Notes under the pieces: generated by a model
Databases searched by the model: none
Told to the model about the DNA's origin: nothing
Seen by the model: the letters and a program-made list of their open reading frames with translations, nothing else
In this document: one piece after another, positions 411 through 11,692 of the stretch
Layout of the letters: each line of letters opens with the position of its first letter
How positions within the stretch are numbered: position 1 is the first letter of the stretch
From: a virus
Taxonomy: Monodnaviria; Loebvirae; Hofneiviricota; Faserviricetes; Tubulavirales; Inoviridae
Direction: 5' to 3' (one strand)
Virus record (IMG/VR): IMGVR_UViG_2563366980_000001
DNA: 11,692 nt
Position numbers and translations under genes: made by a program

Positions 411-438
411 ATTTAACATAATATACATTATGCGCACC
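411..438 (-). other. dif: dif chromosome-dimer resolution site (XerC/XerD target); left boundary of integrated element
   Basis: Plus strand reads ATTTAACATAATATACATTATGCGCACC. Its reverse complement is GGTGCGCATAATGTATATTATGTTAAAT, an exact 28/28 match to the canonical E. coli dif (XerC arm, 6-bp central region, XerD arm). Confidence 0.9.
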
Positions 439-1309
439 AATGGTAAGGATGGCAGAATCTGGCGGGAATCGTTGACACTGGCCGTCAACTGGCTACTATC
501 GACAGTGATTCAAAATCATCCGTTTCTCCAAACGAATCAGAATCAAATGTCTGTCAGCAGTAAGTGAACGGCCTGACCTCACCAATCAGGCCTGTTCATC
601 CAGTTAGTTGGTAAATCTGTACCTGATACACGAGAATCAAACACCACTTCTTCAGTGCCATCACCATGATGCCGGATAATCTGGTAACCGGATTGCGGGT
701 TCTGGCTCTCAGCTTCATAAGCAGCCCGGAATGCTGGATCTTTGAGAAGCATCACTTTCAGCTCCTGATGTGTCATGAATTTTTCCATGATAAGCCCCGA
801 TGAATGCTGCCGCGCCGAATCAGCCATAACGCTGAAAATGGAAACTGTACGGCTTGGCCAACCCCGGACAGCAACAAAACAAGTTTTGTCACTGACCGGC
901 GTTATCTTTCAAAACAGACAGTTAACGATTTTTTGTCTGGTGTTTATGCGTGAAATTTCGTACGTACGAAATTCACCACCAATAAACAAACGGACGATGA
1001 CTGACCGGAAAAGCAATGCCGTCAGCATCATGACCACGCATTACCTGATTGAGAAGCCTTCTGACTTCACGGCGCTCAGGCCTGGTCATCATCATATTGC
1101 GATACCAGGACGGCGATTTATCAAACCATCTGGCACAACTGGCAAAATGTGAACCTACACGACGATAAGACTTAAGGCGGCCACCGGGAAGTCGGTCACG
1201 CGCCTTATTTTTTACAGACATAATAAATCCTCTAAGTAACTGAATACCTAGAAGATGTCGTACTGTTCATACCCCATAAAAGTTAACGCCATAATAAAAA
1301 TCCATACAA

Positions 1310-2554
1310 TCAGTTCAGGTTGTCCCGGAACAGTTCACCGCTCCTCGCGGCGCTGCGGGGCGTCGCCCTGCTCCGGTCAACCTTTCTGACCTGAAGCATC
1401 ACCATAATATCAGTCTTGTTGCTTTCACTGGTACGGGAACCGAAGAAGCTCCAGCCGGAACTGGCCTTACTGTCTTTCTGTTCAGCAAGGCCACCAAGTA
1501 AAATAATATCACCATCTGCAAGGCTGACTTCGGTTGTTACATCACGCTTGATAAGGGTTGGCGAGTTATTGACGCCGGTTTCAGTGGTCACAAAGTTGGA
1601 AAGCTGCTGCTGAATCTTGAGATCCATTGTCCGACTTTTGATTGATGGCGTTACGTTAAACAAAACACCGCTGGAACGATATTCAACGGATTGCGTGGTC
1701 GTATTGTTATTCACCGTAACACTGCCCAGTACTGGCACATCAGAGCCGACTGAAAAAGACGCTGAGGCATTATTTTTTACCCGCAGTCGTGGCGCACTGA
1801 CAACAGTAAAACGACTGTCGGTTTTAAGCAGATTGAAAATGGCATCAATGGAGCCGGTTCGAATATTGATAAAATTATCCAGTCCGGCAGCACCAACTGA
1901 AATATTGAATTTATCAGACAGAATTTTAGCCGCTAAAAGAATGCCGGAGCCGTCAGACTGCGAGGTCTGAACCTCAAAAACATAACCAGAAACAACCACT
2001 TCATCACTCATCGTATCCAGCGAAGTGACCAGTGTTTTCAGGATGGCGATATCCTCTTTCGTACCATAATAAACCAGAATATCACCGGTTCGATTGATGT
2101 AGTTGCTTGCCCCTGATGAACCTTTTAGCGAATCGTCAGAAATCACGGCTCCACTGTTATTGAAGGAGCCTGAAACGTAGCCGCCAAGAATATCAGACAG
2201 GTAGGCAACAGAACGGTACTGAGGCGTATAAGTCCATGTATAACGTGGCTTAACCGGCTCTTTCGGCGTATAGGGCGCGATAAAATCAACACCCTTTTTC
2301 GTCCATATTCGAATGTTCATATTGCCAAGATAACGGGTTACAAATTCCCGTTCATCAATATCAGGTGTTAACCTGAATGTAATCATTCGTTCATCATTAA
2401 CAAGCTGTGGATCTAGCATATACGGGACTTTAAGCACCTCACTATAAATAAGAGAAATAGCCTCCGGTAGCTTGACTTTATTTAATTCAAGCTCTGACCC
2501 TGCGAAAGCACATGAAGAAAATAGTAGCGTTAATGCGAGTAAAATCTTTTTCAT
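1310..2554 (-). CDS. pIV-like secretin (filamentous phage export channel), 414 aa
   Basis: N-terminal signal peptide MKKILLALTLLFSSCAFA. Size and position (last gene of the assembly module, directly after the pI-like gene with a TAATG stop/start overlap at 2554) match gene IV of Ff-type phages. SD-like GGGGAA lies upstream. C-terminal region is Gly/Ser/Val-rich as in secretin domains. Confidence 0.75.
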   Translation of the reverse strand: MKKILLALTLLFSSCAFAGSELELNKVKLPEAISLIYSEVLKVPYMLDPQLVNDERMITFRLTPDIDEREFVTRYLGNMNIRIWTKKGVDFIAPYTPKEPVKPRYTWTYTPQYRSVAYLSDILGGYVSGSFNNSGAVISDDSLKGSSGASNYINRTGDILVYYGTKEDIAILKTLVTSLDTMSDEVVVSGYVFEVQTSQSDGSGILLAAKILSDKFNISVGAAGLDNFINIRTGSIDAIFNLLKTDSRFTVVSAPRLRVKNNASASFSVGSDVPVLGSVTVNNNTTTQSVEYRSSGVLFNVTPSIKSRTMDLKIQQQLSNFVTTETGVNNSPTLIKRDVTTEVSLADGDIILLGGLAEQKDSKASSGWSFFGSRTSESNKTDIMVMLQVRKVDRSRATPRSAARSGELFRDNLN

Positions 2555-3579
2555 TATTTTTTCCCCGTATAAAGCGTCACACGCTCACCATCAATAATTC
2601 CGCTCATCAACATCCCTTTGTAATTAAAACTGGATGCAGGAACGGCACGCAAAACACCGGCACCGTTAACAAGAATCACAAACGCCCTGCCTTCACTGGT
2701 CATTCTCCCTGATATACGCCACTCGGTTGAAAGTGGCGGTTCAGCTGGTTCTGAGGGAGTATCTGGTGCTGGAGTAGCAGCGGAAGAACGAAACATGGCC
2801 GCATCACGTACATCTGTTGTAGCCAAATCTGGCGAGGGATCGCTTCGGCCAAACGTGCTGAAAAATGAGTAAATCAGCCAGCCTGACCCGATAAACATCA
2901 ATGGAAAAAGCACAAGAAAGAACCTGACTTTGCCAGAATTCCAGATGCTCTGGCGTTTATCTGTCTGCTTTTCATTACCGTTATTTCCTTCATAGCTTTT
3001 ATAAAGTTCAAAAATATCAGGGTTATATTTATTGCGATAACTGGTGACGAGGTTGCTTTTATAGATTTTGTGGCCTGAATATACGTCAATGCAGTAATGA
3101 TTATTCAGGCCCAACGCTTTCAGCTTGCGCATCCGGTAAGTTGTTTCTATTTTGTCTTTCAGAAAGCGAGCAATATTAGAAAGTGACTGATTTACAATAA
3201 CCAAATCACAGCTAATACCCGTTTCAGGGTGCGTAAAATGACGATGTTCAGCAATAAATGATTTCTTCTCAGCCGTCATATCCTTATCGCTACCGAAGAT
3301 TCTCCATGCTTCATCAATAACAATTAAATCACCAAACTGGCAAAAGCTCCCTTCCCCACCTTTAAAAGGAAAGAAATCTGTTTTAAGCACATCATCATTA
3401 TCCACAACAATAATTTCTCCCGTTGCATCAGGATAACGTTCGGTGATTTTATCTTTTTGTAAACCATAAATGTTCGTCACAACTCTCCGGCCGCTGGTAA
3501 ATGCAGGAATAATGACATTGCAAACGGCTTCATAACTTTTTCCTGAGCCGGGTATGCCAATATATGCAGAAATAGCCAT
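2554..3579 (-). CDS. pI / Zot-like phage assembly NTPase, 341 aa
   Basis: N-terminal Walker A motif GIPGSGKS at residues 8-15 (MAISAYIGIPGSGKSYEAV), typical of gene I and Zot proteins. Internal hydrophobic segment FFLVLFPLMFIGSGWLIYSFF consistent with the single transmembrane helix of pI. SD-like GGGTGAG upstream of ATG. Confidence 0.85.
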   Translation of the reverse strand: MAISAYIGIPGSGKSYEAVCNVIIPAFTSGRRVVTNIYGLQKDKITERYPDATGEIIVVDNDDVLKTDFFPFKGGEGSFCQFGDLIVIDEAWRIFGSDKDMTAEKKSFIAEHRHFTHPETGISCDLVIVNQSLSNIARFLKDKIETTYRMRKLKALGLNNHYCIDVYSGHKIYKSNLVTSYRNKYNPDIFELYKSYEGNNGNEKQTDKRQSIWNSGKVRFFLVLFPLMFIGSGWLIYSFFSTFGRSDPSPDLATTDVRDAAMFRSSAATPAPDTPSEPAEPPLSTEWRISGRMTSEGRAFVILVNGAGVLRAVPASSFNYKGMLMSGIIDGERVTLYTGKK

Positions 3580-3582
3580 AAC

Positions 3583-3870
3583 TCACCCTATAACAGGAAT
3601 ACGTCGAATAATAAAACGAGTAGCCATTGCGGAGATAATCATACTAATCCCCTGTGGTAATTTACTCAGATTAATGAAGTACCAGAATCCGTCTGATAAA
3701 TTGGCAAACAGCGATGAGAGATTGCTTGAATCTGGCAGTAACTCAACAAGGATTTCAACGAAGCCCTGGACTACAAAATACAGCGCAAAGAATACGACGA
3801 ATTTAATAATCAATGACCGGAATACAAAACCTAACAAAGTATTTAATGCACTAATCAGAATCCCAAACAT
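3583..3870 (-). CDS. pVI-like minor coat / membrane protein, 95 aa
   Basis: Highly hydrophobic 95-aa product. Sits between the pIII-like and pI-like genes as gene VI does in Ff phages. AAGGAG SD 8 nt upstream of ATG. Confidence 0.6.
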   Translation of the reverse strand: MFGILISALNTLLGFVFRSLIIKFVVFFALYFVVQGFVEILVELLPDSSNLSSLFANLSDGFWYFINLSKLPQGISMIISAMATRFIIRRIPVIG

Positions 3871-3882
3871 AGTTGCACTCCT

Positions 3883-5595
3883 TTAGGCACTCAGAATAAT
3901 ACGGAGCGCAACAAATCCCCATATAATCAGAAATATGGTTTCTACGGCGCCTCTGTTCTGCTCAATTAACGGACAATGGGAGTCAATTCTGTACTGGTGA
4001 TTAAACACGCTGAATTCAACAACGGGGCAGGATGCTGAACGAGAGCCGATGTTAAATTCGTTTGTAAAAGGCAACAAGTTAATAATTGGCGTTAAAATAT
4101 CTCTTGCCGTTGGCGTTTCTTCAAGCTCAGGCTCTTTTACACCGGGATCTTCTCCCAAAGCTATATTGCCATTATTTCCAGTGTCAGACCCTGAGTTGTT
4201 ATTAATGGTAATATCAATATTGACGTCAGCCCCTGCACTGTCAGATACAGGTGAAAGCATATCTAATAACGTTGGAGATAGCCTAAGTTCCGACATCGCA
4301 GAAGTTACTTCAGCCGGTGAAACCTCTTTAAACGGTAAGCCGTTATAATCGGCATTAACGGCAGCTTCAGACCACAGCTCGTTAATCATGTCGGCAAGAA
4401 GTGCTGGCGATACACTAACACTATCAAGATACTCCAGATAATCAATCATGGACTCAATATTTCCGGCCTCCAGTACTTCCGTCATGGCTTTATATTTGGT
4501 ATTGGTCCAGATAGTAAGCTCACTCTTTTCATCAATATCTTTTGCGGTGTAATCCTCTTTTTCAGGAACGGCGCAAATCGTCGAATATCCACCATTTGAC
4601 TGATTAGTCGTTTTACAAGGCGTGTTGTGATACTGATATTGCTTGCCTGCTGTTAAATAAGCAACGCTGTAATACATGGGAAGCCCTGCTACATTTTCAT
4701 ACATGGGAATACCTGCGGGAAATGAAGATGCGGACGGGTTGCTATACAAGTGTGTAATCTCAGGTATTTCATAAAATGAGGAAGGATAAGTAAACTTATA
4801 ATTATGTTCAGTAAAGGATACATCTCCATTACTGTTGACAACTTTATTCGTCACAGTGCGTTCAAAATTCGTTAGTGTTTCAGTATAAGTACGCGAGTTA
4901 TAGTCATTAAGATAATTTCTGGCAATTTCAGTTGGATTATCACCATAGTAATAAATTAGCTCTTTCGAATCCTGATAATAATAAAGCGCATTATCTGGCG
5001 TGGAATATCCTGTTTCAACACCTACAACTGGAGAACCCGCATCCACATTATTACGACTAACATGAAGGATTACCGGACTTAATTCCTGTGGTTCAAAATT
5101 AACGGTTATCGTCTTACTTTCACCACTTTGACCACTGTACGTTACTTCATATAAATTATCGGAAATCTTTTTACCGTTAGTCATTACCATTACCGAGCCG
5201 TCAGATGAACTCAAAGAAGACGGAACAAAAGATGATACAGCAGCAGCAATACCCGCCCACGTTGCAACACCGCTCATTTTGTATGATGAGGCAGCAGGCA
5301 AGTATTCGGCAGCATTAGCCGCAGCGCGGCCAACAAAAACACGGGTTGCTGTAAGCTGTGATGCCGTATAAATCGCATCATTGGCAGCAAAGCGACGAAC
5401 AAGCACCCGGCCAACGACTTTAGGAATAACAGCCCGCGCAGCCACTGCTGCAATTGCTGGTACAAATGAATATGAATATCGGGGAAAGGAAACCCAGAGA
5501 AAGGAAAAAATAAAGGAATAAACCGTCAGCCTCTTAGCCCAAGAATAACGACATAAGCTGAGACGATCCCCCATAAAAGGGAACCCAATTTCCAT
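3883..5595 (-). CDS. pIII-like adsorption / minor coat protein, 570 aa (start uncertain)
   Basis: Largest ORF of the structural module, directly after the major coat gene and its terminator. Tyr/Asn/Ser-rich central region, Gly/Ser/Asn linker-like stretches and a C-terminal hydrophobic anchor (ETIFLIIWGFVALRIILSA) as in pIII C-domains. GGAGA SD 7-9 nt upstream of ATG at 5595. The first ~106 residues are atypical, and a signal-peptide-like segment begins at the internal Met (codon 107, near 5277). Confidence 0.65.
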   Translation of the reverse strand: MEIGFPFMGDRLSLCRYSWAKRLTVYSFIFSFLWVSFPRYSYSFVPAIAAVAARAVIPKVVGRVLVRRFAANDAIYTASQLTATRVFVGRAAANAAEYLPAASSYKMSGVATWAGIAAAVSSFVPSSLSSSDGSVMVMTNGKKISDNLYEVTYSGQSGESKTITVNFEPQELSPVILHVSRNNVDAGSPVVGVETGYSTPDNALYYYQDSKELIYYYGDNPTEIARNYLNDYNSRTYTETLTNFERTVTNKVVNSNGDVSFTEHNYKFTYPSSFYEIPEITHLYSNPSASSFPAGIPMYENVAGLPMYYSVAYLTAGKQYQYHNTPCKTTNQSNGGYSTICAVPEKEDYTAKDIDEKSELTIWTNTKYKAMTEVLEAGNIESMIDYLEYLDSVSVSPALLADMINELWSEAAVNADYNGLPFKEVSPAEVTSAMSELRLSPTLLDMLSPVSDSAGADVNIDITINNNSGSDTGNNGNIALGEDPGVKEPELEETPTARDILTPIINLLPFTNEFNIGSRSASCPVVEFSVFNHQYRIDSHCPLIEQNRGAVETIFLIIWGFVALRIILSA

Positions 5596-5620
5596 AATTC
5601 AATCTCCATAATAACCTCAA

Positions 5621-5646
5621 GTAAAACGGGCGATATTGCATCGCCC
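5621..5646 (-). terminator. Rho-independent terminator after the major coat gene
   Basis: On the minus strand: GGGCGAT-GCAAT-ATCGCCC (7-bp perfect stem, 5-nt loop) followed by GTTTTAC. Lies 14 nt downstream of the coat gene stop, analogous to the strong terminator after gene VIII in Ff phages. Confidence 0.6.
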
Positions 5647-5659
5647 ATGAATAATGAAT

Positions 5660-5893
5660 TTATGCGGATTTAACGGTACGCAATACCCAGCGAACGCCAG
5701 CGACACCGGCATAAAGTGTTACCAGTGAAGCAGCAACGGCCATAATCGCAACCAGAACTGTACTGAAATCAATGCTGTTCGTCAGCGGCGATAAATCAAC
5801 ACCACTTGATGCCGCTCCTTCTGCAGCGAAAGTCGCGCCAGAAACAGCCATTAATGCAGGTACAGCCAGAAAACTAACGATTTTTTTAAACAT
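5660..5893 (-). CDS. pVIII-like major coat protein precursor, 77 aa
   Basis: Classic architecture: signal peptide MFKKIVSFLAVPALMAVSGATFA, acidic N-terminus of the mature part (AEGAASSGVDLS), hydrophobic core, basic C-terminus (RWVLRTVKSA). GGAGA SD upstream. Confidence 0.8.
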   Translation of the reverse strand: MFKKIVSFLAVPALMAVSGATFAAEGAASSGVDLSPLTNSIDFSTVLVAIMAVAASLVTLYAGVAGVRWVLRTVKSA

Positions 5894-5927
5894 AACTCTA
5901 TCTCCATTACATTTTAAAGGTTCGCAT

Positions 5928-6179
5928 TCAAGCAGTACGAACCATCTTTATTACCTGTCCCACACCTACAGAAAAAAGCCAGAGCAGCAGGACAGAGCCA
6001 AAACCTAATGTCCAGTAATTTCCCATTGCAGAATAATCAATTTGATGAAATGGTTCAGAACGTACCATTATTGCCTGACATTCTTTTGCATTGTTCGCAT
6101 TACATAAATAACCTTCAATACGGTAACCATTTTCAGGAATATGATTATCAAACTGAATATCGAAACCTGATGTATCCAT
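5928..6179 (-). CDS. small hypothetical protein with C-terminal transmembrane helix (possible minor coat protein), 83 aa
   Basis: Tightly packed between the ssDNA-binding and coat genes (start 6179, upstream stop 6182-6184). AAGG SD-like upstream. C-terminal hydrophobic helix WTLGFGSVLLLWLFSVGVGQVI. Function inferred from position only. Confidence 0.45.
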   Translation of the reverse strand: MDTSGFDIQFDNHIPENGYRIEGYLCNANNAKECQAIMVRSEPFHQIDYSAMGNYWTLGFGSVLLLWLFSVGVGQVIKMVRTA

Positions 6180-6181
6180 AA

Positions 6182-6499
6182 TCAGCCTTTTATTTCAGTA
6201 ATGCCGCCATCTGATGAAATGTTATAAGTTACTCCTTCCCTCCCCTCCATTGACCAGACGCGAACATATACAGGTATCTGGACTAACTTACCGATAAAAT
6301 TATTTGCCTGATTCATTACACCGGCATTAACAAGAGCCTGAGATACACGAATAATAATCTGGTCTTGCTTAGTGCCACCAAAACCATCAGGAATCTCTAA
6401 GCCAACACCAATTTCATTATAGTATCCCTGACCATTGACCTTATTACGCTGGCGAGCACCAAGCATTTTACCTTTTACAAAAAGACCATAATTAGACAT
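6182..6499 (-). CDS. pV-like ssDNA-binding protein (putative), 105 aa
   Basis: Immediately downstream of the replication gene with a strong SD (AAAGGAGAGTGATAT-ATG). Small Gly-rich basic protein at the position occupied by gene V or RstB in filamentous phages. Functional call is positional. Confidence 0.55.
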   Translation of the reverse strand: MSNYGLFVKGKMLGARQRNKVNGQGYYNEIGVGLEIPDGFGGTKQDQIIIRVSQALVNAGVMNQANNFIGKLVQIPVYVRVWSMEGREGVTYNISSDGGITEIKG

Positions 6500-6510
6500 A
6501 TCACTCTCCT

Positions 6511-7563
6511 TTAATGCCAGTTACTGGCATGTGAAATACGGTTATAATCGAAAATTAAACCTTTCTCATAAACCCATGATGGAATTTTGGCTGGTTTGGC
6601 TTCAAGAGTACGAACCAACGGAACAACGTTATTAGAATCCGGTGACTCACAATAAAAGTTAATATCTATTCCGAAAGAAAGTAATTCTTTACGGTGTCGG
6701 TAGAATGTAGGTTTCGGTAACATCTCTTTCATGTTCGCGCCCTGCTTCCACAATAAATATGTAGACTGTATTTTTCTTGGGAGATTAATTATTTTTTCAT
6801 CAGTTAATATGGTATTTTGATTCATTTCTATTCTCCCTACATAGTCAGAGAATAATTTATTGGGCGTCTCAATATTCCAGCTATTACCAAGCGTAAGATT
6901 CAAATCAATTAATTCAGTTGTTCTTAATGTTAATTCAATGCGTAATTTATCTTTTGACCAGTCCAGTAAACCAGCTTTAACGAATTCGTCTGCCATCTGG
7001 TGCCCTTTTTTGCCAGATGTATGCTCATCATATTTTGAATAAAATTTCAGGCTCCAACGACGGGAGTTTTTCCCTAAGTAAACAGTGCCACCTTTACCAC
7101 AGGCGCGACCGTGGCGAGTTTTAGCTTTAAATTCTGCGGCATATAACCATGCGCGGACATTTTCTAATGTTGACAATGAATACATGTAATTGATATCGAT
7201 GCGCGAGATCTTAAATTGCCCTTCCATGACCTGCCGATAGGATGGTAGATCATGAGGAATATGCAGTAATGCCAATATTCTGGCGTAAGCTGTTAACACC
7301 AACCCTTGCAAATCGTCGGAACCGATAACAGAGTGACCTTGCAAAAACTTTGATGGATTACCGTCAATGTAGAGATGTGTTGCCCGACCTTCACCATCAG
7401 ATCCAACAGACCTTACTTTCATTGTGGACTCATGCGAACCGCGAACTGTCAACCGTTTTACTGTTTCCCACTCCACTGCACCGTCAGCATTGACGCTGAC
7501 GACACTACCAGCCGGTAACGGTCGGTGTGTGCAAGGCAGGATTCCGGTAAACCAGTCGATCAT
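6511..7563 (-). CDS. Rolling-circle replication initiation protein (pII / RstA-like), 350 aa
   Basis: First gene of the minus-strand phage operon, divergent from the repressor gene. Size and position match filamentous-phage replication initiators. Family assignment from gene order and overall character, not a verified motif. Confidence 0.7.
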   Translation of the reverse strand: MIDWFTGILPCTHRPLPAGSVVSVNADGAVEWETVKRLTVRGSHESTMKVRSVGSDGEGRATHLYIDGNPSKFLQGHSVIGSDDLQGLVLTAYARILALLHIPHDLPSYRQVMEGQFKISRIDINYMYSLSTLENVRAWLYAAEFKAKTRHGRACGKGGTVYLGKNSRRWSLKFYSKYDEHTSGKKGHQMADEFVKAGLLDWSKDKLRIELTLRTTELIDLNLTLGNSWNIETPNKLFSDYVGRIEMNQNTILTDEKIINLPRKIQSTYLLWKQGANMKEMLPKPTFYRHRKELLSFGIDINFYCESPDSNNVVPLVRTLEAKPAKIPSWVYEKGLIFDYNRISHASNWH

Positions 7564-7734
7564 AAGTAGTCACACCCATCAAAATATGTGTCAATAGTCA
7601 TTTGTGAGCAGATTGAATGGTCACAATGTAATATGCTCAGATCTGACAGTCAATACATTTGCAATGTTTAAATTGTCAGAAATGAGCATCAAATCTAACT
7701 ATTGAAAAACCACTGTTAAGATGGAGCCAAGTAG
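7564..7734. promoter_or_regulatory. Divergent promoter/operator region between replication gene and repressor gene
   Basis: 171-bp AT-rich intergenic region between divergent start codons. Contains the perfect palindrome TCAGATCTGA (7637-7646), TGTGA-N12-TCACA (7604-7625), direct repeats of GTCAATA (7590-7596, 7649-7655) and repeated TGAGCA/TGCTCA half-sites (7605-7610, 7633-7638, 7683-7688). GGAG SD at 7723-7726 precedes the repressor ATG. Confidence 0.55.
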
Positions 7735-8181
7735 ATGGGCAACAATGAGCATGAAGTTATGGCGGACAAACAGAGAGCAGAACGTATCAAAAAGGTAATT
7801 CTGGAACACTCGACTTATGAAGAACTGGCCGAGAAGACTGGCATTAGCGTGAGTACGCTGGTCAGGATAGCGTCCGGCAAAACTGAACCTAAATTCAGTG
7901 ACATCATTCAGATAGCTAAAATTACTGGTGCAGACTTAAACACCTTAGCTTATGGCTATGCTCTTGATGTTAAAGAAGAAGCTACCGAGCGGAAGCTAAT
8001 CACTTCTGCGGATGGATATACTGATGAAGAAACCACTAACGCACATAATTTCATCGTGTGGAACATCAGGACACTGGAAAAACAAGATATTCTGGCACTC
8101 GCAAGGCAGGTTTCTGCCTTAAGTTCATACACTTACAGTACTAAAATGTTTATGAAAAAAGCGGTGTCTGGAGAAGAGTAA
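7735..8181 (+). CDS. XRE-family helix-turn-helix transcriptional regulator (putative prophage repressor), 148 aa
   Basis: HTH signature TYEELAEKTGISVSTLVRIASGK near the N-terminus. Divergent from the replication gene, as rstR is from rstA in CTXphi-type phages. SD GGAG 8 nt upstream. An alternative start at the internal Met (codon 9) is possible. Confidence 0.85.
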   Translation: MGNNEHEVMADKQRAERIKKVILEHSTYEELAEKTGISVSTLVRIASGKTEPKFSDIIQIAKITGADLNTLAYGYALDVKEEATERKLITSADGYTDEETTNAHNFIVWNIRTLEKQDILALARQVSALSSYTYSTKMFMKKAVSGEE

Positions 8182-8192
8182 AAGGATTAACA

Positions 8193-8245
8193 GTCTCAGG
8201 AATGAGACAAACGTGCAGTATTACCAACACTGCACGTTCTTTATT
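8193..8245 (+). terminator. Tandem hairpins after the repressor gene, the second a rho-independent terminator
   Basis: GTCTCA-GGAA-TGAGAC (8193-8208), then ACGTGCAGT-ATTACCAAC-ACTGCACGT (9-bp perfect stem, 8211-8237) followed by TCTTTATT. Confidence 0.6.
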
Positions 8246-8280
8246 GCGCGAATTTTGAACAGTGAAAAAGGATCAAAAGG

Positions 8281-8703
8281 ATGAGTAGAAATAACGAAAC
8301 AAGCGGCGTTGAACTGGTTGTCGTGGGCATATTTGCTTTCTGTCTGGCAGTTGTTGCCTGGCTAATGAAAACTTTCGATGTTGAATGGCAAACAGCTCTG
8401 GAAACTGCGCCTAGCCTGATAGTCTGGCTGCTTGTTGTTGGGGCGGGGATCTTTTTCGGGATCAAAATGGAAACAGGTCTTGTTCGCTGGGGTGCTCCAC
8501 TGGCGATTGCCCTTCTGATTCCGGTATTCAAACCAATCCTTAAGGAAGCTGCCGGAGTACGTGAAACGGGTGGATTGGTTTTCGATGATATGGTTTCGTG
8601 GTATGGAACTGGCTGGGGAATGTCGTTGATGTTTTTCGGAATTCTTATCATCGGATACGGGCTGCTTTATTGGTGGCACAGAAGAAATTCATATCACTGG
8701 TAA
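8281..8703 (+). CDS. hypothetical integral membrane protein with four predicted TM helices, 140 aa (cargo gene 1)
   Basis: Four hydrophobic segments of about 18-20 residues (VELVVVGIFAFCLAVVAWL, LIVWLLVVGAGIFFGI, WGAPLAIALLIPVF, MSLMFFGILIIGYGLLYWW). AAAAAGGA/AAAGG SD-like sequence just upstream of ATG. Not part of the canonical filamentous-phage gene set. No family recognised. Confidence 0.6.
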   Translation: MSRNNETSGVELVVVGIFAFCLAVVAWLMKTFDVEWQTALETAPSLIVWLLVVGAGIFFGIKMETGLVRWGAPLAIALLIPVFKPILKEAAGVRETGGLVFDDMVSWYGTGWGMSLMFFGILIIGYGLLYWWHRRNSYHW

Positions 8704-8707
8704 TTTC

Positions 8708-8729
8708 AAACCGTGGGAAACCACGGTTT
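8708..8729 (+). other. Perfect stem-loop with GAAA tetraloop between the two cargo genes
   Basis: AAACCGTGG-GAAA-CCACGGTTT (9-bp perfect stem) starting 5 nt after the stop of cargo gene 1. No downstream U-tract, so not a canonical intrinsic terminator. Confidence 0.45.
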
Positions 8730-8795
8730 AATAAGAGGAAACTGAACCCTATCAGTTCCACAATGGAAAAATTGTGCTGCAAACAACTTACTTAA

Positions 8796-9920
8796 TTGGA
8801 TATCAACCAAATGAATGCACTTCTAGGGAAAATTGCAGGAGCAGTAGCAACCTTCTTTGTTGCTCTTATTTTGAATAAATTTTTTTCAACATTTCGTATT
8901 AGACAACTTTACTTAGCATATGAACATATATTAGAGCACACAACACAAAGCATAACTGGATATACAGTCATGTTCACAGTTACGAACAAAGGAAAAGAGA
9001 AAGAAAAAAACGTAACCATTACAATACCAAAAAGCAAGTCGATATCTCTTATCTCAGCTAATAATGTTAGCATTGAATGTAAAGATAACAAAATAATCAT
9101 TGACCGCATCCTGCCAAAGGAAAATATTACTTTGATTGTTTTGGTTAAAAATGGTGGCGTTCTATCGAAGTCTAACTTACCAATATTGAAATCTGAAGAT
9201 GCTAATGGAAAGTGTTATGACAGCATAAAGAAAATACCACCTAGCCTTGGCCCTGCTTTCTTCAGCTTTTCATTGTTTATTGCATTTTTAGTATTAATGG
9301 GAGGAGCCATATACAAAGGTTACGATCCCTTTGAAGTAACATATACGCAATATTTCAAAATGAGATTCACTCCTTTCTATGATAGAGGTTTTGAAAATAA
9401 TTCATTCCAAAATAACTCCCTTACAAAACAATATGATACATCAAAATCAGACTTCCCGATTGATCTAAAGAGTCTTAATGTGAAGGATGGGAAAATCGAG
9501 TATGTTTTCATTATTGATAATAAAACCAACTATAACCTTAGTGCGGACATGAAATTTATAGTTAGAGATGAAAACCAATATTATGATGAGTTGGGAAAAG
9601 TATTGAACATTAGGAATGACGCTGATAGACGTCAAGCTTTACACGAACTAAGAGATAAATATCATGTTGCTGAAGATACTACAGGTGCTACATATTCAAT
9701 AAGTGAATGGATTGATAAGGGACAAAGAAAAGAAATAAAAATGACTCGCCAGTTGTCGAAAGGCATCGATTATAAGGATCTCGGTGTTGATATAAGGATA
9801 AGGAATGATGCAAATGATGATAATTATTACGGCGACTATCAATTTAAACCGGAACGCTCAGCAATAGCTAAAAATAAATTGGATGCAGCAATTGCTACTC
9901 AACGTTTTCCGTTGAAATAG
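8796..9920 (+). CDS. hypothetical membrane-anchored protein, 374 aa, AT-rich (cargo gene 2)
   Basis: Long ORF in markedly AT-rich DNA with Lys/Asn/Ile/Asp-rich product. Predicted N-terminal TM helix (residues ~9-30) and a second hydrophobic helix (~152-172), a beta-rich region between them and a ~200-aa hydrophilic C-terminal domain. The first codon at 8796 is TTG; the first ATG is at 8811 (MNALLGK...). Neither has a strong SD. Followed by a strong terminator. No family recognised. Confidence 0.65.
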   Translation: MDINQMNALLGKIAGAVATFFVALILNKFFSTFRIRQLYLAYEHILEHTTQSITGYTVMFTVTNKGKEKEKNVTITIPKSKSISLISANNVSIECKDNKIIIDRILPKENITLIVLVKNGGVLSKSNLPILKSEDANGKCYDSIKKIPPSLGPAFFSFSLFIAFLVLMGGAIYKGYDPFEVTYTQYFKMRFTPFYDRGFENNSFQNNSLTKQYDTSKSDFPIDLKSLNVKDGKIEYVFIIDNKTNYNLSADMKFIVRDENQYYDELGKVLNIRNDADRRQALHELRDKYHVAEDTTGATYSISEWIDKGQRKEIKMTRQLSKGIDYKDLGVDIRIRNDANDDNYYGDYQFKPERSAIAKNKLDAAIATQRFPLK

Positions 9921-9959
9921 TTGAGATTTTTGGTTCGCACAATGACGTTATGCTAAAGA

Positions 9960-9995
9960 GGCCGCTGCGGGATTCGATTTTCGCAGCGGCCTTTT
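9960..9995 (+). terminator. Rho-independent terminator ending the cargo operon
   Basis: GGCCGCTGCG-(12-nt loop)-CGCAGCGGCC, a 10-bp perfect GC-rich stem (9960-9969 / 9982-9991) followed by TTTT (9992-9995). Begins 40 nt after the stop of the 374-aa ORF. Confidence 0.8.
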
Positions 9996-10025
9996 CAACA
10001 TAACGAGTCGTACATTATGCGCACC
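9993..10025 (-). other. dif-like hybrid attachment site (right prophage junction)
   Basis: Minus strand reads GGTGCGCATAA-TGTACGACTCG-TTATGTTGAAA. The XerC arm is 11/11 identical to dif, the spacer is 11 bp instead of 6, and the XerD-like arm matches TTATGTTAAAT at 9/11. Same orientation as the canonical dif at 411-438. About 78 bp from the hipA stop. Confidence 0.7.
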
Positions 10026-10103
10026 AACATAAACCAAGGGAGAATCCAGTCGTTGGCGGTTCATGATTGTTCTGCTCATTAACAACGACCAAAACCCCAT
10101 ATC

Positions 10104-11426
10104 TTACTTAATACCGTATTCTCGGCTTAACCGACCGTGCAACCTCAACACATTGGTTTCAACTGCCGTCACCACGTTCTCCGGAAAATCTGTCGGTAAT
10201 GAAGTCTTCACGTTATCCAGTGCTGCCGGAATCATTCTGGCAAAGTCACTCAGGATTTCATGCATCTGCACTTCCGGGAATTTCAGCACCTTTGCTGTCG
10301 CCAGAAAATGTCGCGGATAAATTTTATCGATTGCCGTTTTTTTGCCTTTGGATGCGTTAAGCCCCATTGCCAGTTTGAGATCGCTGATGTGTATTCCCGT
10401 ACCGCCAAGGACCGGAAATGCCGAAATGATGTCATAAAATGGTGTGAGCCGATAACTGCCGCCAGCCTGAATAAATACGGAGAAGTTTTTTGCATGGCCA
10501 TCTGTTGCGCCAATCAACCACTGGAAGACCTGAAACTTCATAAAATCATAGCGATCTTTCAGCGCCTCGCTGGACCCCATCAAAAAAGCCATAATTTGCG
10601 CGATACCGGGGCCTCCATCTGATTCATATTTCACCGATGAAGGTAAACCGAATGTCTGGCACATATCCTCCTGTGGCAAGCGAAGTAAAACCGTTCGCTC
10701 AGTATTCCAACGCCTGTCAAAACGTTTGACCGCTAACGCGCGCACCCTTCCCGCTTTAATGATTTCTGCGTCCGGAACATTCAACCCGAGTTCTTTCGCC
10801 AGCAGCAAACAGTAATACTCATTATCAACGCTTTGGCTAAGATCGAGCGTCGCATTGGGCTGTCTGATTTCGCCAATCGGCAATTTGATAATGTGCGTCG
10901 TTGGCGTTATTCCCTTCGGAATGCACCAGTCATTGCCTATTCTGAGCAGCGCAGTCTTCTCCTGTGCGCCAGCAACCGAGATGCGAAAGTCATTTTCTTC
11001 TCTAATCATGCCTAACGGGATATCTGCTTTATAAGCCGTTAATACTTCTTCAAGTCTGGCTTCAGTAAGCTTTTCCCATGCCATTATCGGACACATTACG
11101 GTTTCATCTTCGGGGATTAACGTCACGGCACCAACGCTGTCTCGCCCTATTTCTGACAATAAATCAAACGGTTGTCTGGATTTAGCATGATAACGTTTAA
11201 CGATCCGGTCACGTACAATCGGGCTATCGGGTAACAGGTTATCGAAGAAGTTAAATACGGCATCAGAGGTGATATTCCTCCTCTGCAATGGCAGCGAAAG
11301 TGACAACGGTCTGGCATAACGGCTGGCTAACCACTCAGGTGCATACTTAAAGGTGTGCGCGCCGTTGGCTAACTTCGTTAACTCGCCTACCCGCTGGTTG
11401 TTCATCCAAGTGACTAGTTTAGGCAT
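10104..11426 (-). CDS. hipA: HipA serine/threonine kinase toxin (type II TA system), 440 aa
   Basis: Translation from the ATG at 11426 (MPKLVTWMNNQRVGELTKLANGAHTFKYAPEWLASRYARPLSLSLPLQR...) is recognisably near-identical to E. coli HipA as I recall it. The start overlaps the hipB stop (ATGA). The ORF-track entry begins 19 codons further upstream in frame, but those codons overlap hipB. Confidence 0.95.
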   Translation of the reverse strand: MPKLVTWMNNQRVGELTKLANGAHTFKYAPEWLASRYARPLSLSLPLQRRNITSDAVFNFFDNLLPDSPIVRDRIVKRYHAKSRQPFDLLSEIGRDSVGAVTLIPEDETVMCPIMAWEKLTEARLEEVLTAYKADIPLGMIREENDFRISVAGAQEKTALLRIGNDWCIPKGITPTTHIIKLPIGEIRQPNATLDLSQSVDNEYYCLLLAKELGLNVPDAEIIKAGRVRALAVKRFDRRWNTERTVLLRLPQEDMCQTFGLPSSVKYESDGGPGIAQIMAFLMGSSEALKDRYDFMKFQVFQWLIGATDGHAKNFSVFIQAGGSYRLTPFYDIISAFPVLGGTGIHISDLKLAMGLNASKGKKTAIDKIYPRHFLATAKVLKFPEVQMHEILSDFARMIPAALDNVKTSLPTDFPENVVTAVETNVLRLHGRLSREYGIK

Positions 11427-11692
11427 CACCACTCCAGATCTTGCTGTTCTGTTGCTTCTGGCGAGGCATTTTTTGCGTCGCATAGCGTCATTGAGAGTTC
11501 AAGCGACTGTAAAATCTTAAAAAATGTCGTGAGCGAGGTATTGTTAGGATTGTTTTCGAAATTGGAAATTGTCGCCTGCTTAATGCCGATTTTTTTCGCC
11601 AACTCGCTCTGCGTCCAGCCGTTTTGCTGGCGAACCAGTTTCATTGCATTCGCCAATTGCATTGGGCTATAGATCTTCTGAAAGCTCATCAT
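11426..11692 (-). CDS. hipB: HipB antitoxin, HTH (XRE-type) DNA-binding protein, 88 aa
   Basis: MMSFQKIYSPMQLANAMKLVRQQNGWTQSELAKKIGIKQATISNFEN... matches E. coli HipB. The start codon lies at the window edge (11690-11692). The stop overlaps the hipA start. Confidence 0.95.
   Translation of the reverse strand: MMSFQKIYSPMQLANAMKLVRQQNGWTQSELAKKIGIKQATISNFENNPNNTSLTTFFKILQSLELSMTLCDAKNASPEATEQQDLEW

What the first reader, a model, noticed from the sequence alone, without database searches (positions are those of the whole stretch)
8281..9920. Uncharacterised two-gene membrane-protein cargo cassette between the prophage repressor and the att site
Two plus-strand ORFs lie outside the canonical filamentous-phage gene set: a 140-aa protein with four predicted TM helices and a 374-aa protein with an N-terminal TM helix, a second internal TM helix and a ~200-aa hydrophilic C-terminal domain. 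I recognise no catalytic or family motif in either. They are co-oriented with the lysogeny repressor, downstream of its terminator hairpins, and end at a strong terminator abutting the att site. Accessory genes in this position in temperate phages (lambda cI-rexAB is the classic parallel) often encode superinfection exclusion, anti-phage defence or host-conversion factors. A small four-TM protein paired with a larger membrane-tethered partner fits a membrane-acting exclusion or abortive-infection module. This is my best candidate for an undescribed system in the window. Function is hypothesis only.
Basis: partly seen in the sequence, partly recalled or inferred. Interest (0 to 1): 0.82.

Follow-up and report, generated by a model that had tools for sequence, protein, structure and literature searches.

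The report
Swappable cargo slot in filamentous prophage
The two genes are real but are not a pair: the small one is a fixed part of a filamentous prophage of E. coli UTI89, and the large one is one of at least seven swappable cargo inserts beside the phage's integration site and belongs to an undescribed membrane-protein family that probably protects the host from other phages.

Summary
The window is the CUS-1-type filamentous prophage of E. coli UTI89, integrated at dif beside hipBA. Both ORFs exist and are under purifying selection (dN/dS 0.05-0.13). They have no hit in Pfam, NCBIfam, PADLOC or PDB. The two-gene cassette reading fails.

orfA (140 aa, 4 TM) is a conserved module carried with the phage regulator in 128 of 5,426 complete E. 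coli genomes and in other Enterobacterales.

orfB (369 aa from ATG 8811) fills a sharply bounded variable slot (8705/8728-9929) between orfA and the attP hairpin. The same slot holds at least six other inserts. These include an AbiJ_NTD4 protein (PADLOC PDC-S32), a DpnII/MboI-type nuclease (PDC-S35) and a 29%-identical second orfB allele.

orfB relatives (184 clusters at 50% identity) occur without orfA:
- in three further inovirus lineages
- next to integrases of prophage-like elements
- beside a PDC-M38 candidate defence pair
- on IncF plasmids and in toxin-antitoxin islands

The model shows TM1, a conserved beta-sandwich (predicted cytoplasmic), TM2 and a variable beta-sandwich (predicted periplasmic).

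Best reading: orfB is a single-gene inner-membrane exclusion or defence protein in an inovirus hypervariable region. This kind of region is already described in Vibrio. The protein family is new and its function is untested.

The parts
411..438 (-). Perfect E. coli dif site (ATTTAACATAATATACATTATGCGCACC) at the left prophage junction. Phage DNA starts at about 425.
   Evidence: Exact 28/28 match. The episomal circular form L043 aligns to window 425-8702.
7735..8181 (+). Prophage repressor, 148 aa, with an HTH_3 / CI-type helix-turn-helix
   Evidence: Pfam HTH_3 1.6e-9 and Phage_CI_repr 4.4e-4. It is 100% identical in prophages that carry other cargo.
8193..8238 (+). Two tandem hairpins followed by UUCUUUAUU, after the repressor. 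They form the left edge of the orfA module (8180-8704).
   Evidence: RNA fold dG -22, z -3.7. The 8180-8704 module is shared by phages with a different 60-aa regulator.
8281..8703 (+). orfA: conserved 140-aa four-helix membrane protein (PHROG 4174). It is a fixed part of the lysogeny-side module.
   Evidence: It is found in 128 of 5,426 E. coli genomes. Mean column identity is 83% across genera. dN/dS is 0.06-0.13.
8708..8729 (+). Hairpin just after orfA. It is shared with two other cargo types, whose homology runs to 8727.
   Evidence: dG -14.5, z -3.9; breakpoints.
8705..9929 (.). Hypervariable cargo slot. Its conserved flanks end at 8703/8704 (or 8727) and resume at 9930.
   Evidence: blastn breakpoints are identical in 14 loci. 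Seven alternative contents were found.
8811..9920 (+). orfB: 369-aa two-pass membrane protein (PHROG 17621). It is the cargo carried in UTI89.
   Evidence: dN/dS is 0.05.
8907..9218 (+). orfB domain 1 (aa 33-136): beta-sandwich with motifs conserved across the family (NKGKDKE in most members; KSEDANGK). Predicted cytoplasmic.
9249..9317 (+). orfB TM2 (aa 147-169), preceded by the near-invariant VPPSxGP motif
9390..9845 (+). orfB C-terminal beta-sandwich with a helical hairpin (aa 194-345). It is the variable part of the family and is predicted periplasmic.
   Evidence: AF2 pLDDT is 85-91. About 100 relatives share only the first 250 aa or so. No cysteine in 24 of 24 sequences.
9930..10027 (+). 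attP-derived module: two inverted dif-like sites that fold as a forked ssDNA hairpin. The right arm (9998-10025) is the hybrid dif-like junction.
   Evidence: DNA fold dG -27.9, z -5.8. The module is conserved 90-99% in E. coli, Salmonella and Yersinia inoviruses and at tandem junctions. In the episome it is joined to the left end.

Best explanation
The region holds three separate units, not one cassette.

**(1) orfA.** This is a conserved 4-TM inner-membrane protein. It travels with the regulator as part of the lysogeny-side module of several dif-integrating inoviruses of Enterobacterales. Its role is unknown. By position and by its retention in decayed prophages, it may give homotypic exclusion or another lysogen-side function.

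**(2) The cargo slot.** A sharply bounded hypervariable slot lies between the orfA stop codon and the attP hairpin. It resembles the phage hypervariable regions described in Vibrio inoviruses.

**(3) orfB.** This is the UTI89 occupant of that slot. It is a stand-alone gene of a previously undescribed family.

Shown:
- orfA and orfB are genetically separable.
- The slot breakpoints are identical across strains.
- Alternative occupants include candidate defence genes.
- The orfB family is spread over unrelated mobile elements, always with GC lower than its flanks.
- orfB is under purifying selection.

Predicted architecture: TM1, a conserved beta-sandwich, TM2 and a variable beta-sandwich. The positive-inside rule places the conserved domain in the cytoplasm and the variable domain in the periplasm.

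Inferred mechanism: orfB is made in the lysogen, probably by read-through from the repressor/orfA transcript, because only about 18 nt upstream of its ATG move with it. It sits in the inner membrane and protects the lysogen from other phages. The fast-evolving periplasmic domain would recognise an incoming phage component or a host entry factor and block genome entry. The invariant cytoplasmic domain would bind a conserved partner or drive oligomerisation. Cargo could be shuffled by recombination between the conserved flanks, or by hybrid-phage formation from tandem dif prophages as known for CTX-phi.
For: - **Identity of the locus:** 100% match to UTI89 and its relatives; annotation.
- **orfA without orfB:**
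- **orfB without orfA:** L006-L016; L034 and L036-L039 (for L036 a 91-aa ORF precedes the orfB homologue, while L034, L037 and L039 were not tblastn-checked for orfA); L040-L042; L044; tblastn check of L007, L038 and L041.
- **Breakpoints:** 8703/8727 and 9930 in 14 loci.
- **Slot contents:** AbiJ_NTD4+DUF7014 / PDC-S32 at 4.5e-10; REase_DpnII-MboI / Aga_Helical-REase at 1.3e-34 / PDC-S35; a second orfB allele at 29% identity, hhalign E 3.5e-58.
- **Frequencies in 5,426 genomes:** orfA 128; cargo types 10, 17, 18, 28, 15 or more, 24 and 1.
- **Cargo is inside the circular phage:** the 9,565-bp episome.
- **Family size:** 184 clusters at E below 1e-3, none with a Pfam or PADLOC family among 149 tested.
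- **Neighbours elsewhere:** integrases; a PDC-M38 A/B pair at 1.4e-260 and 8e-79; HicAB and Xre toxin-antitoxin pairs; TacAT on IncF plasmids.
- **Low GC:** 0.32-0.41 against flanks of 0.53-0.62.
- **Structure:**. **Topology:** flanks of domain 1 carry K+R 3.0 and 2.1, against 0.17 and 1.29 outside.
- **Selection:** dN/dS.
- **Precedent:** Vibrio pHVRs carrying defence genes (PMC12715192).
Against: - No experiment or expression data exist. Function rests on guilt by association.
- orfB and 148 relatives match no PADLOC model.
- Fold searches return only generic beta-sandwiches. No effector or catalytic domain is evident.
- No promoter-like site was found upstream of orfB. Hairpins lie between the repressor, orfA and orfB, so expression in lysogens is not assured.
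- Topology comes from charge counts only. TM pLDDT is below 50.
- Several slot occupants are themselves uncharacterised, and the PDC families are candidates, not proven defences.
- CUS-1 and Ypf-phi have been linked to in-host fitness (PMC4266046), so a host-interaction role is not excluded.
Confidence: 0.5

Rival explanations
1. First reader's model. orfA and orfB form one two-component membrane module of the lambda RexAB type. The 4-TM protein would be the channel and the larger protein its sensor or partner.
For: - The genes are adjacent and co-oriented downstream of the repressor.
- orfA is close to RexB in size and TM count (140 against 144 aa, 4 TM).
- The orfA+orfB pair is also found together in a second phage backbone, ZYB62.
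Against: - orfA is followed by six other cargo types.
- orfB-family genes stand alone in about ten other contexts.
- The homology breakpoint falls exactly between the two genes.
- There is no RexB or RexA homology.
- The ZYB62 pairing is explained by transfer of the whole 8180-10027 block.
Confidence: 0.05
2. orfB is an abortive-infection effector, not an entry block. The periplasmic or cytoplasmic domain senses infection, and the two TM helices oligomerise to depolarise the membrane. This kills or arrests the cell.
For: - orfB shares its slot with an AbiJ-like protein and a nuclease.
- Relatives neighbour toxin-antitoxin pairs and PDC-M38.
- Membrane-spanning effectors are common in Abi systems (general knowledge).
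Against: - Only two TM helices are present and no known pore or effector domain.
- No toxicity data exist.
- The most variable part is the domain predicted to lie outside the cytoplasm. That fits recognition at entry better than recognition of cytoplasmic phage products.
Confidence: 0.17
3. orfB is a lysogenic-conversion or host-fitness factor unrelated to phages. It would change the envelope or act during colonisation or infection of animals.
For: - CUS-1 and Ypf-phi are linked to in-vivo fitness (PMC4266046).
- UTI89-type carriers are mostly human ExPEC isolates.
- Vibrio pHVRs sometimes carry toxins such as TDH.
Against: - Relatives occur in environmental Pseudomonas, in plasmids and in metagenomic viral contigs.
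- The protein is predicted to stay in the inner membrane, with no export signal.
- The reported CUS-1 fitness defect mapped to puvA (pIII), not to these ORFs.
Confidence: 0.13
4. orfB serves the phage or mobile element itself. It might stabilise the episome or prophage (an addiction-like function), modulate Xer integration at the adjacent attP, or ease virion extrusion stress.
For: - orfB lies immediately next to attP in the four inovirus backbones where att was mapped. In the Providencia prophage it is the last phage gene before host genes.
- It lies next to plasmid stability and toxin-antitoxin genes on IncF plasmids.
Against: - Most prophages of the same backbone, with the same attP, lack orfB.
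- The gene also sits in integrase-type prophages and chromosomal islands with no dif or attP.
Confidence: 0.08

Closest known systems
[quoted passage not shown]
   Same: Both are short variable gene slots at a fixed position in XerCD/dif-integrating non-tailed phages. Both are bounded by conserved phage genes, lie next to the lysogeny/att module, hold defence-type cargo, and exchange content with other phages and plasmids.
   Different: The host clade differs (Enterobacterales) and so does the phage lineage (CUS-1 / If1-like). The slot is flanked by orfA and attP instead of zot and xafT, and no XafT homologue is seen. The occupants are different, including the undescribed orfB family.
Lambda cI-rexA-rexB immunity-region exclusion module
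   Same: Accessory genes lie downstream of, and co-oriented with, the prophage repressor. One is a 4-TM protein of about 140 aa.
   Different: There is no sequence or profile similarity. The two genes are not an obligate pair. orfB is a membrane protein, whereas RexA is soluble.
Prophage inner-membrane superinfection-exclusion proteins (P22 SieA, T4 Imm, HK97 gp15, Pf4 PfsE) - recalled from general knowledge
   Same: These are small to medium inner-membrane proteins encoded as prophage morons near the lysogeny module, and they act alone.
   Different: No homology was tested or found, because these families are heterogeneous. orfB has two beta-sandwich domains on opposite sides of the membrane. 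Its activity has not been shown.
P2/P4 defence hotspots (Rousset et al. 2022; recalled, not read here)
   Same: Each is a fixed slot with conserved flanks in a small temperate element and holds many alternative one- or two-gene defence systems. orfB relatives also sit at the integrase-proximal edge of two prophage-like elements, one with P2-type structural genes.
   Different: The phage family, flanks and integration mechanism all differ. Only two of seven occupants here match candidate defence models.
CUS-1 'orf1 / orf1a' and Ypf-phi YPO2271/2272 (PMC4266046)
   Same: Going by position next to the repressor, these appear to be the same ORFs. The review describes the equivalent Ypf-phi pair (YPO2271/YPO2272) as lacking database homologues and of unknown function, and says it is replaced in CUS-1 by unrelated orf1 and orf1a.
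   Different: The review treats them as a pair of phage-specific ORFs. It reports no variable slot, no family and no separability.

Membership tests
Lambda RexAB-type two-gene exclusion system | 4-TM partner belongs to the RexB family | tested here: not met
   No Pfam RexB hit for orfA at E of 1 or below. hhalign of the orfA profile against lambda RexB gives probability 0.15%.
Lambda RexAB-type two-gene exclusion system | Second component is homologous to RexA | tested here: not met
   hhalign of the orfB profile against lambda RexA gives probability 3.5%. orfB has two TM helices.
Lambda RexAB-type two-gene exclusion system | The two genes co-occur as an obligate pair | tested here: not met
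   orfA is in 128 genomes and about 27 of these hold an orfB-family gene in the slot. orfB occurs without orfA in L006-L016 and L040-L044.
Inovirus hypervariable region (pHVR) / prophage cargo hotspot | Variable content between conserved flanks at a fixed position | tested here: met
   Breakpoints fall at 8703/8727 and 9930 in 14 loci. Seven contents were found.
Inovirus hypervariable region (pHVR) / prophage cargo hotspot | Lies next to the lysogeny module and dif-like attP of a Xer-dependent phage | tested here: met
   The order is repressor, orfA, slot, attP hairpin. A perfect dif lies at 411-438 and the episome confirms the circle junction.
Inovirus hypervariable region (pHVR) / prophage cargo hotspot | Occupants include recognised anti-phage genes | tested here: inconclusive
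   Two of seven occupants match candidate families (PDC-S32/AbiJ_NTD4; PDC-S35/REase_DpnII-MboI). None is an experimentally validated system.
Inovirus hypervariable region (pHVR) / prophage cargo hotspot | Flanked by xafT, as in Vibrio CTX-I | tested here: not met
   No HTH/XafT-like gene lies between the slot and attP. The flanking gene orfA is a 4-TM protein.
Catalogued anti-phage defence proteins (PADLOC-DB v2) | Significant match to a defence or candidate-defence HMM | tested here: not met
   orfA and orfB give 0 families at E of 1 or below. 149 orfB-family members give 0 families.
Canonical inovirus replication and morphogenesis proteins | Homology to pI-pVIII, pII, pV or secretin families | tested here: not met
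   No such Pfam hit for orfA or orfB. The replication, Zot and secretin genes have Pfam hits elsewhere in the window; pVI and the ssDNA-binding gene are named in RefSeq; pIII and pVIII are assigned by position.
Prophage superinfection-exclusion membrane proteins | Inner-membrane location | tested here: inconclusive
   Two strong hydrophobic helices and positive-inside counts predict it. TM pLDDT is low. There is no experimental test.
Prophage superinfection-exclusion membrane proteins | Expressed in the lysogen and blocks entry of incoming phage | not testable with these tools
   This needs RNA-seq or proteomics of UTI89 and phage challenge assays.

The most novel reading that the evidence does not exclude
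The orfB family (about 180 clusters; no Pfam, PADLOC or PDB relative) is a new class of single-gene, inner-membrane anti-phage protein. A fast-evolving periplasmic Ig-like domain would detect or block incoming phage at the envelope. An invariant cytoplasmic Ig-like domain (NKGKDKE / KSEDANGK motifs) would act as effector or partner-binding module. The orfA-attP slot of Enterobacterales dif-inoviruses would then be an unmined defence hotspot, and its other orphan occupants (159-aa, 155+123-aa, CxxC proteins) would also be new systems.
Probability: 0.3. Interest if true: 0.65.

Novelty: new variant of a known kind. Interest (0 to 1): 0.5.

Why it matters
If orfB and its slot-mates are defences, small filamentous prophages at dif act as swappable defence carriers in pathogenic E. 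coli (ST95, ST131, NC101-type strains). This would matter for phage therapy and for understanding why these prophages are kept. It would extend the Vibrio pHVR concept to Enterobacterales. It would also give a cheap discovery handle: any gene found between orfA and the attP hairpin becomes a candidate. The orfB family would add a defence architecture with no enzymatic domain. If it is not a defence, it remains a conserved, mobile, orphan membrane-protein family worth a Pfam entry.

Tried and rejected
- **Profile libraries on orfA and orfB.** Pfam, NCBIfam and PADLOC gave nothing. Only PHROGs of unknown function matched.
- **PDB sequence search with profiles.** Nothing useful: IsdB NEAT at E 0.04 for orfB, and no hit for orfA.
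- **RexA/RexB homology.** Rejected. The shared 'NKGKDK' string in the RexA N-terminus is treated as chance.
- **Homology of the 159-aa and 155-aa slot proteins to orfB domain 1.** Only a 26-31-column motif matched, at probability 62% and 38%. This remains inconclusive.
- **Phage collection.** No GenBank phage record matches the window or orfB.
- **Related loci.** The search for related loci failed with the wide alignment. With the narrow one it gave a single genome locus.
- **Literature.** Searches by protein accession gave no paper. The original CUS-1 paper is not held. The UTI89 TraDIS paper does not mention the prophage.
- **Promoter scan.** Nothing above the shuffle expectation.
Full report
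**What the window is.** The 7600-10100 stretch queried is 100% identical to the chromosome of E. coli UTI89, NU14 and related strains. It carries a complete inovirus gene set on the minus strand:
- secretin 1310-2554
- Zot/pI 2554-3579
- pVI 3583-3870
- pIII 3883-5595
- pVIII 5660-5893
- ssDNA-binding protein 6182-6499
- pII 6511-7563

The replication, Zot and secretin genes have Pfam hits and pVI and the ssDNA-binding gene are named in RefSeq; pIII and pVIII are assigned by position. On the plus strand lie an HTH repressor (7735-8181) and then the two ORFs of the finding. hipA and hipB follow. A perfect dif site lies at 411-438. This is the CUS-1-type prophage. A review of Ypf-phi and CUS-1 notes that Ypf-phi's att-adjacent pair YPO2271/YPO2272, of unknown function, is replaced in CUS-1 by two unrelated ORFs, 'orf1 and orf1a' (PMC4266046).

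**Checking the observation.** Both ORFs are present.
- orfA has four hydrophobic helices by hydropathy and in the AF2 model.
- orfB has an N-terminal and an internal TM helix.
- The hairpins after the repressor and after orfB are real.
- Homologue alignments and RefSeq place the orfB start at ATG 8811, giving 369 aa, not TTG 8796.
- Both genes are under strong purifying selection. orfB against the ZYB62 allele gives dN/dS 0.05. orfA against Salmonella, Yersinia and Lonsdalea alleles gives 0.06-0.13.
- Neither matches any Pfam, NCBIfam or PADLOC model. They match only PHROGs of unknown function.

**The 'terminator' is the attP hairpin.** Positions 9930-10027 are conserved at 90-99% in all related prophages. 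They are also conserved at junctions between tandem prophages and in Salmonella and Yersinia inoviruses. The stretch holds two inverted dif-like sites and folds as a long forked hairpin in single-stranded DNA (dG -27.9 kcal/mol, z -5.8). This is the arrangement known for CTX-phi attP (established knowledge). A 9,565-bp circular 'plasmid' of E. coli TUM14759 is the episomal form of this phage. Its sequence joins window 9930-10027 directly to window 425 onward. The prophage therefore spans about 425-10027, and the cargo lies inside the circular phage genome.

**The two genes are not a pair.** Prophages with the identical repressor and a 94-98% identical orfA carry other genes in place of orfB.

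| Cargo in the slot | Example strains |
|---|---|
| STM4504/CBY_0614 protein | SCU-484, NC101 |
| ECs_2282 zinc-binding protein + 159-aa protein | SF-173, ECONIH2, ST131 MB1159, UM146 |
| 155-aa + 123-aa pair | MS8345, UTME-14 |
| 264-aa protein + DUF6953 | A1.S1.65 |
| 'mobilome CxxCx11CxxC' protein + 63-aa ORF | C10 |
| 363-aa protein | FDAARGOS_1261 |

blastn shows that homology to the window stops at 8703/8704, the orfA stop codon. For two cargo types it stops at 8727. It resumes at exactly 9930 in every locus.

The block 8180-8704 (hairpins plus orfA) is itself shared by If1-like phages that use a different 60-aa regulator.

Conversely, orfB homologues occur with no orfA (tblastn check):
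- in another E. coli dif-inovirus, directly after its repressor (62% identity)
- in a Providencia inovirus
- in a third inovirus-like viral contig
- next to the integrase of two prophage-like elements, one of them P2-like
- in a metagenomic island
- in Pseudomonas islands beside HicAB and Xre pairs or a Bro-N protein
- on Enterobacter IncF plasmids beside TacAT

Counts in 5,426 complete E. coli genomes:

| Element | Genomes |
|---|---|
| orfA | 128 |
| orfB, UTI89 type | 10 |
| orfB, second allele | 17 |
| AbiJ-like protein | 18 |
| ECs_2282 pair | 28 |
| 155+123-aa pair | 15 at 99% identity or more |
| Nuclease pair | 24 |
| CxxC protein | 1 |

The 155+123-aa pair also has about 80 diverged copies at 80-90% identity, mostly on plasmids.

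**What shares the slot.**
- The STM4504 protein has AbiJ_NTD4 and DUF7014 domains and matches PADLOC candidate PDC-S32.
- The 264-aa protein has a REase_DpnII-MboI domain. It matches Aga_Helical-REase (1.3e-34) and PDC-S35.
- The 363-aa protein is a divergent orfB (29% identity, hhalign E 3.5e-58). The slot therefore holds two deeply diverged alleles of one family.
- In one viral contig an orfB relative lies directly after a PDC-M38 A/B candidate defence pair and a Dam methylase.
- In every foreign context the orfB relative has much lower GC than its flanks: 0.32-0.41 against 0.53-0.62.

This is the signature of a mobile cargo gene. It matches the hypervariable regions recently described in Vibrio inoviruses, which are reported to carry defence systems (PMC12715192).

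**The orfB family.**
- A word-indexed search found only 8 clusters. An exhaustive profile search found 184 clusters at E of 1e-3 or below.
- About 30 of these are full length (about 355 aa). About 100 are 300-340 aa long and share only the first 250 residues or so.
- Named members come from Escherichia, Citrobacter, Enterobacter, Providencia, Morganella, Pectobacterium and Pseudomonas. All are annotated 'hypothetical'.
- None of 149 members hits PADLOC. Pfam gives only stray Ig-like hits such as DUF11 and FixG_C.
- The AF2 model (pLDDT 72.5; soluble domains 80-90) has this layout: TM1 (2-27), a beta-sandwich (33-136), TM2 (147-169), two short helices, a second beta-sandwich with a helical hairpin (217-345) and a terminal helix.
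- Residues invariant across sequences that are 24-31% identical to orfB (one closer homologue aside) are L33, Y34, N59, G61, K64, E65, R99, S128, G133, G193 and N237. Nearly all lie just after TM1 or in the first sandwich.
- Charge counts over 24 members give K+R of 3.0 and 2.1 on the two flanks of domain 1. The N-tail has 0.17 and the stretch after TM2 has 1.29.
- By the positive-inside rule, the conserved domain is cytoplasmic and the variable C-terminal domain is periplasmic. This is an inference, not a measurement.

**orfA.**
- Forty-nine clusters were found, and all those named by a source are Enterobacterales.
- The protein is very conserved, with mean column identity of 83%.
- It always follows the regulator in inoviruses that have different structural modules.
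- It is retained intact where the rest of the prophage has decayed, in Lonsdalea and Mixta.
- No structural or sequence relative was found.
- It is best described as a fixed lysogeny-side membrane protein of unknown role. Homotypic exclusion is a reasonable guess, but I hold it at low confidence.

**Mechanism proposed.** The following are shown:
- The locus has a modular anatomy.
- orfA and orfB are separable.
- orfB shares the slot with defence-type genes.
- orfB is mobile.
- orfB is under purifying selection.

The rest is inferred. orfB would be a stand-alone inner-membrane protein expressed in the lysogen. Expression is probably by read-through, since only about 18 nt upstream of the ATG co-transfer with the gene and no promoter-like site stands out. 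It would exclude or abort infection by other phages. The variable periplasmic domain would act as the specificity element and the invariant cytoplasmic domain as the partner-binding or effector element. Slot turnover would follow from recombination between the conserved flanks. It could also follow from hybrid-genome formation in tandem dif prophages, which are common here (median 2 copies per genome, up to 16). That route is established for CTX-phi.

**Comparison and verdict.** The system works like a prophage cargo or defence hotspot (Vibrio pHVR, P2/P4 hotspots). It is not a Rex-type pair: the membership tests for RexB, RexA and obligate pairing all failed. The hotspot concept is known. Its presence in Enterobacterales dif-inoviruses, and the orfB family itself, appear undescribed in the literature I could search. 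Function is untested, so interest is moderate.

Noticed in passing
window 411-438 and 9930-10027: A perfect dif site lies at the left prophage junction. A 98-nt attP module of two inverted dif-like sites lies at the right. The episomal form (NZ_CP128883, 9,565 bp) shows the circle junction. The prophage spans about 425-10027.
   Followed up: yes
L021/L022 (Lonsdalea quercina) 8782-9571; L017 (Mixta intestinalis) 8608-9411: orfA survives as an intact ORF (dN/dS 0.13 for the Lonsdalea allele). Lonsdalea keeps only a repressor C-terminal fragment and part of the att hairpin; Mixta keeps only a dif arm. All other phage genes are gone. This looks like a domesticated or selectively retained remnant.
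   Followed up: partly
L004 4216-5100 (155-aa + 123-aa cargo pair): This slot occupant also occurs at 80-90% identity in about 80 further E. coli genomes, mostly on plasmids (73 plasmid places). It is a mobile two-gene unit of unknown function shared by inoviruses and plasmids.
   Followed up: no
L003 4408-4887 and L004 4216-4683: The 159-aa and 155-aa slot proteins have an N-terminal TM, a coiled stretch and a motif (F/I-N-R/K-G-K-x-x-A-K-N-I/V-x-I-x-F-P). This resembles the NKGKDKEKxVxIxFP motif of orfB domain 1. hhalign probability is only 62% and 38%, so a shared membrane-tethered beta-sandwich module is possible but unproven.
   Followed up: partly
window 579-827 (-) and 973-1221 (-): Two small ORFs of 82 aa each lie at the other end of the prophage, beyond the secretin. 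Both are conserved in the episomal form (for the first, RefSeq calls a shorter 65-aa ORF). They appear to correspond to the YPO2280a/YPO2281-type ORFs of unknown function mentioned for Ypf-phi and CUS-1.
   Followed up: no
E. coli genome hits of orfA: orfA-bearing prophages are usually present as tandem arrays (234 places in 128 genomes, up to 16 in one genome). Sometimes the arrays combine different backbones, for example L026 and L032, where a second phage's secretin follows the att module. This could drive module shuffling.
   Followed up: partly
window 8763-8795: A 10-codon mini-ORF (MEKLCCKQLT) ends one base before the TTG at 8796, in the cargo-specific leader of orfB. It has no obvious ribosome-binding site and its significance is unknown.
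   Followed up: no
L045 (lambda rexA, N-terminus): RexA residues of about 3-25 read 'NGFYATYRSKNKGKDKRSINLSVF', superficially like the orfB motif. The profile comparison gives probability 3.5%, so this is treated as chance.
   Followed up: yes
window 3883-5595 (-) and 10104-11483 (-): The longest ORFs for pIII/puvA (570 aa) and hipA (459 aa) are longer than the RefSeq calls (520 and 440 aa). This is only a difference in start-codon choice.
   Followed up: no
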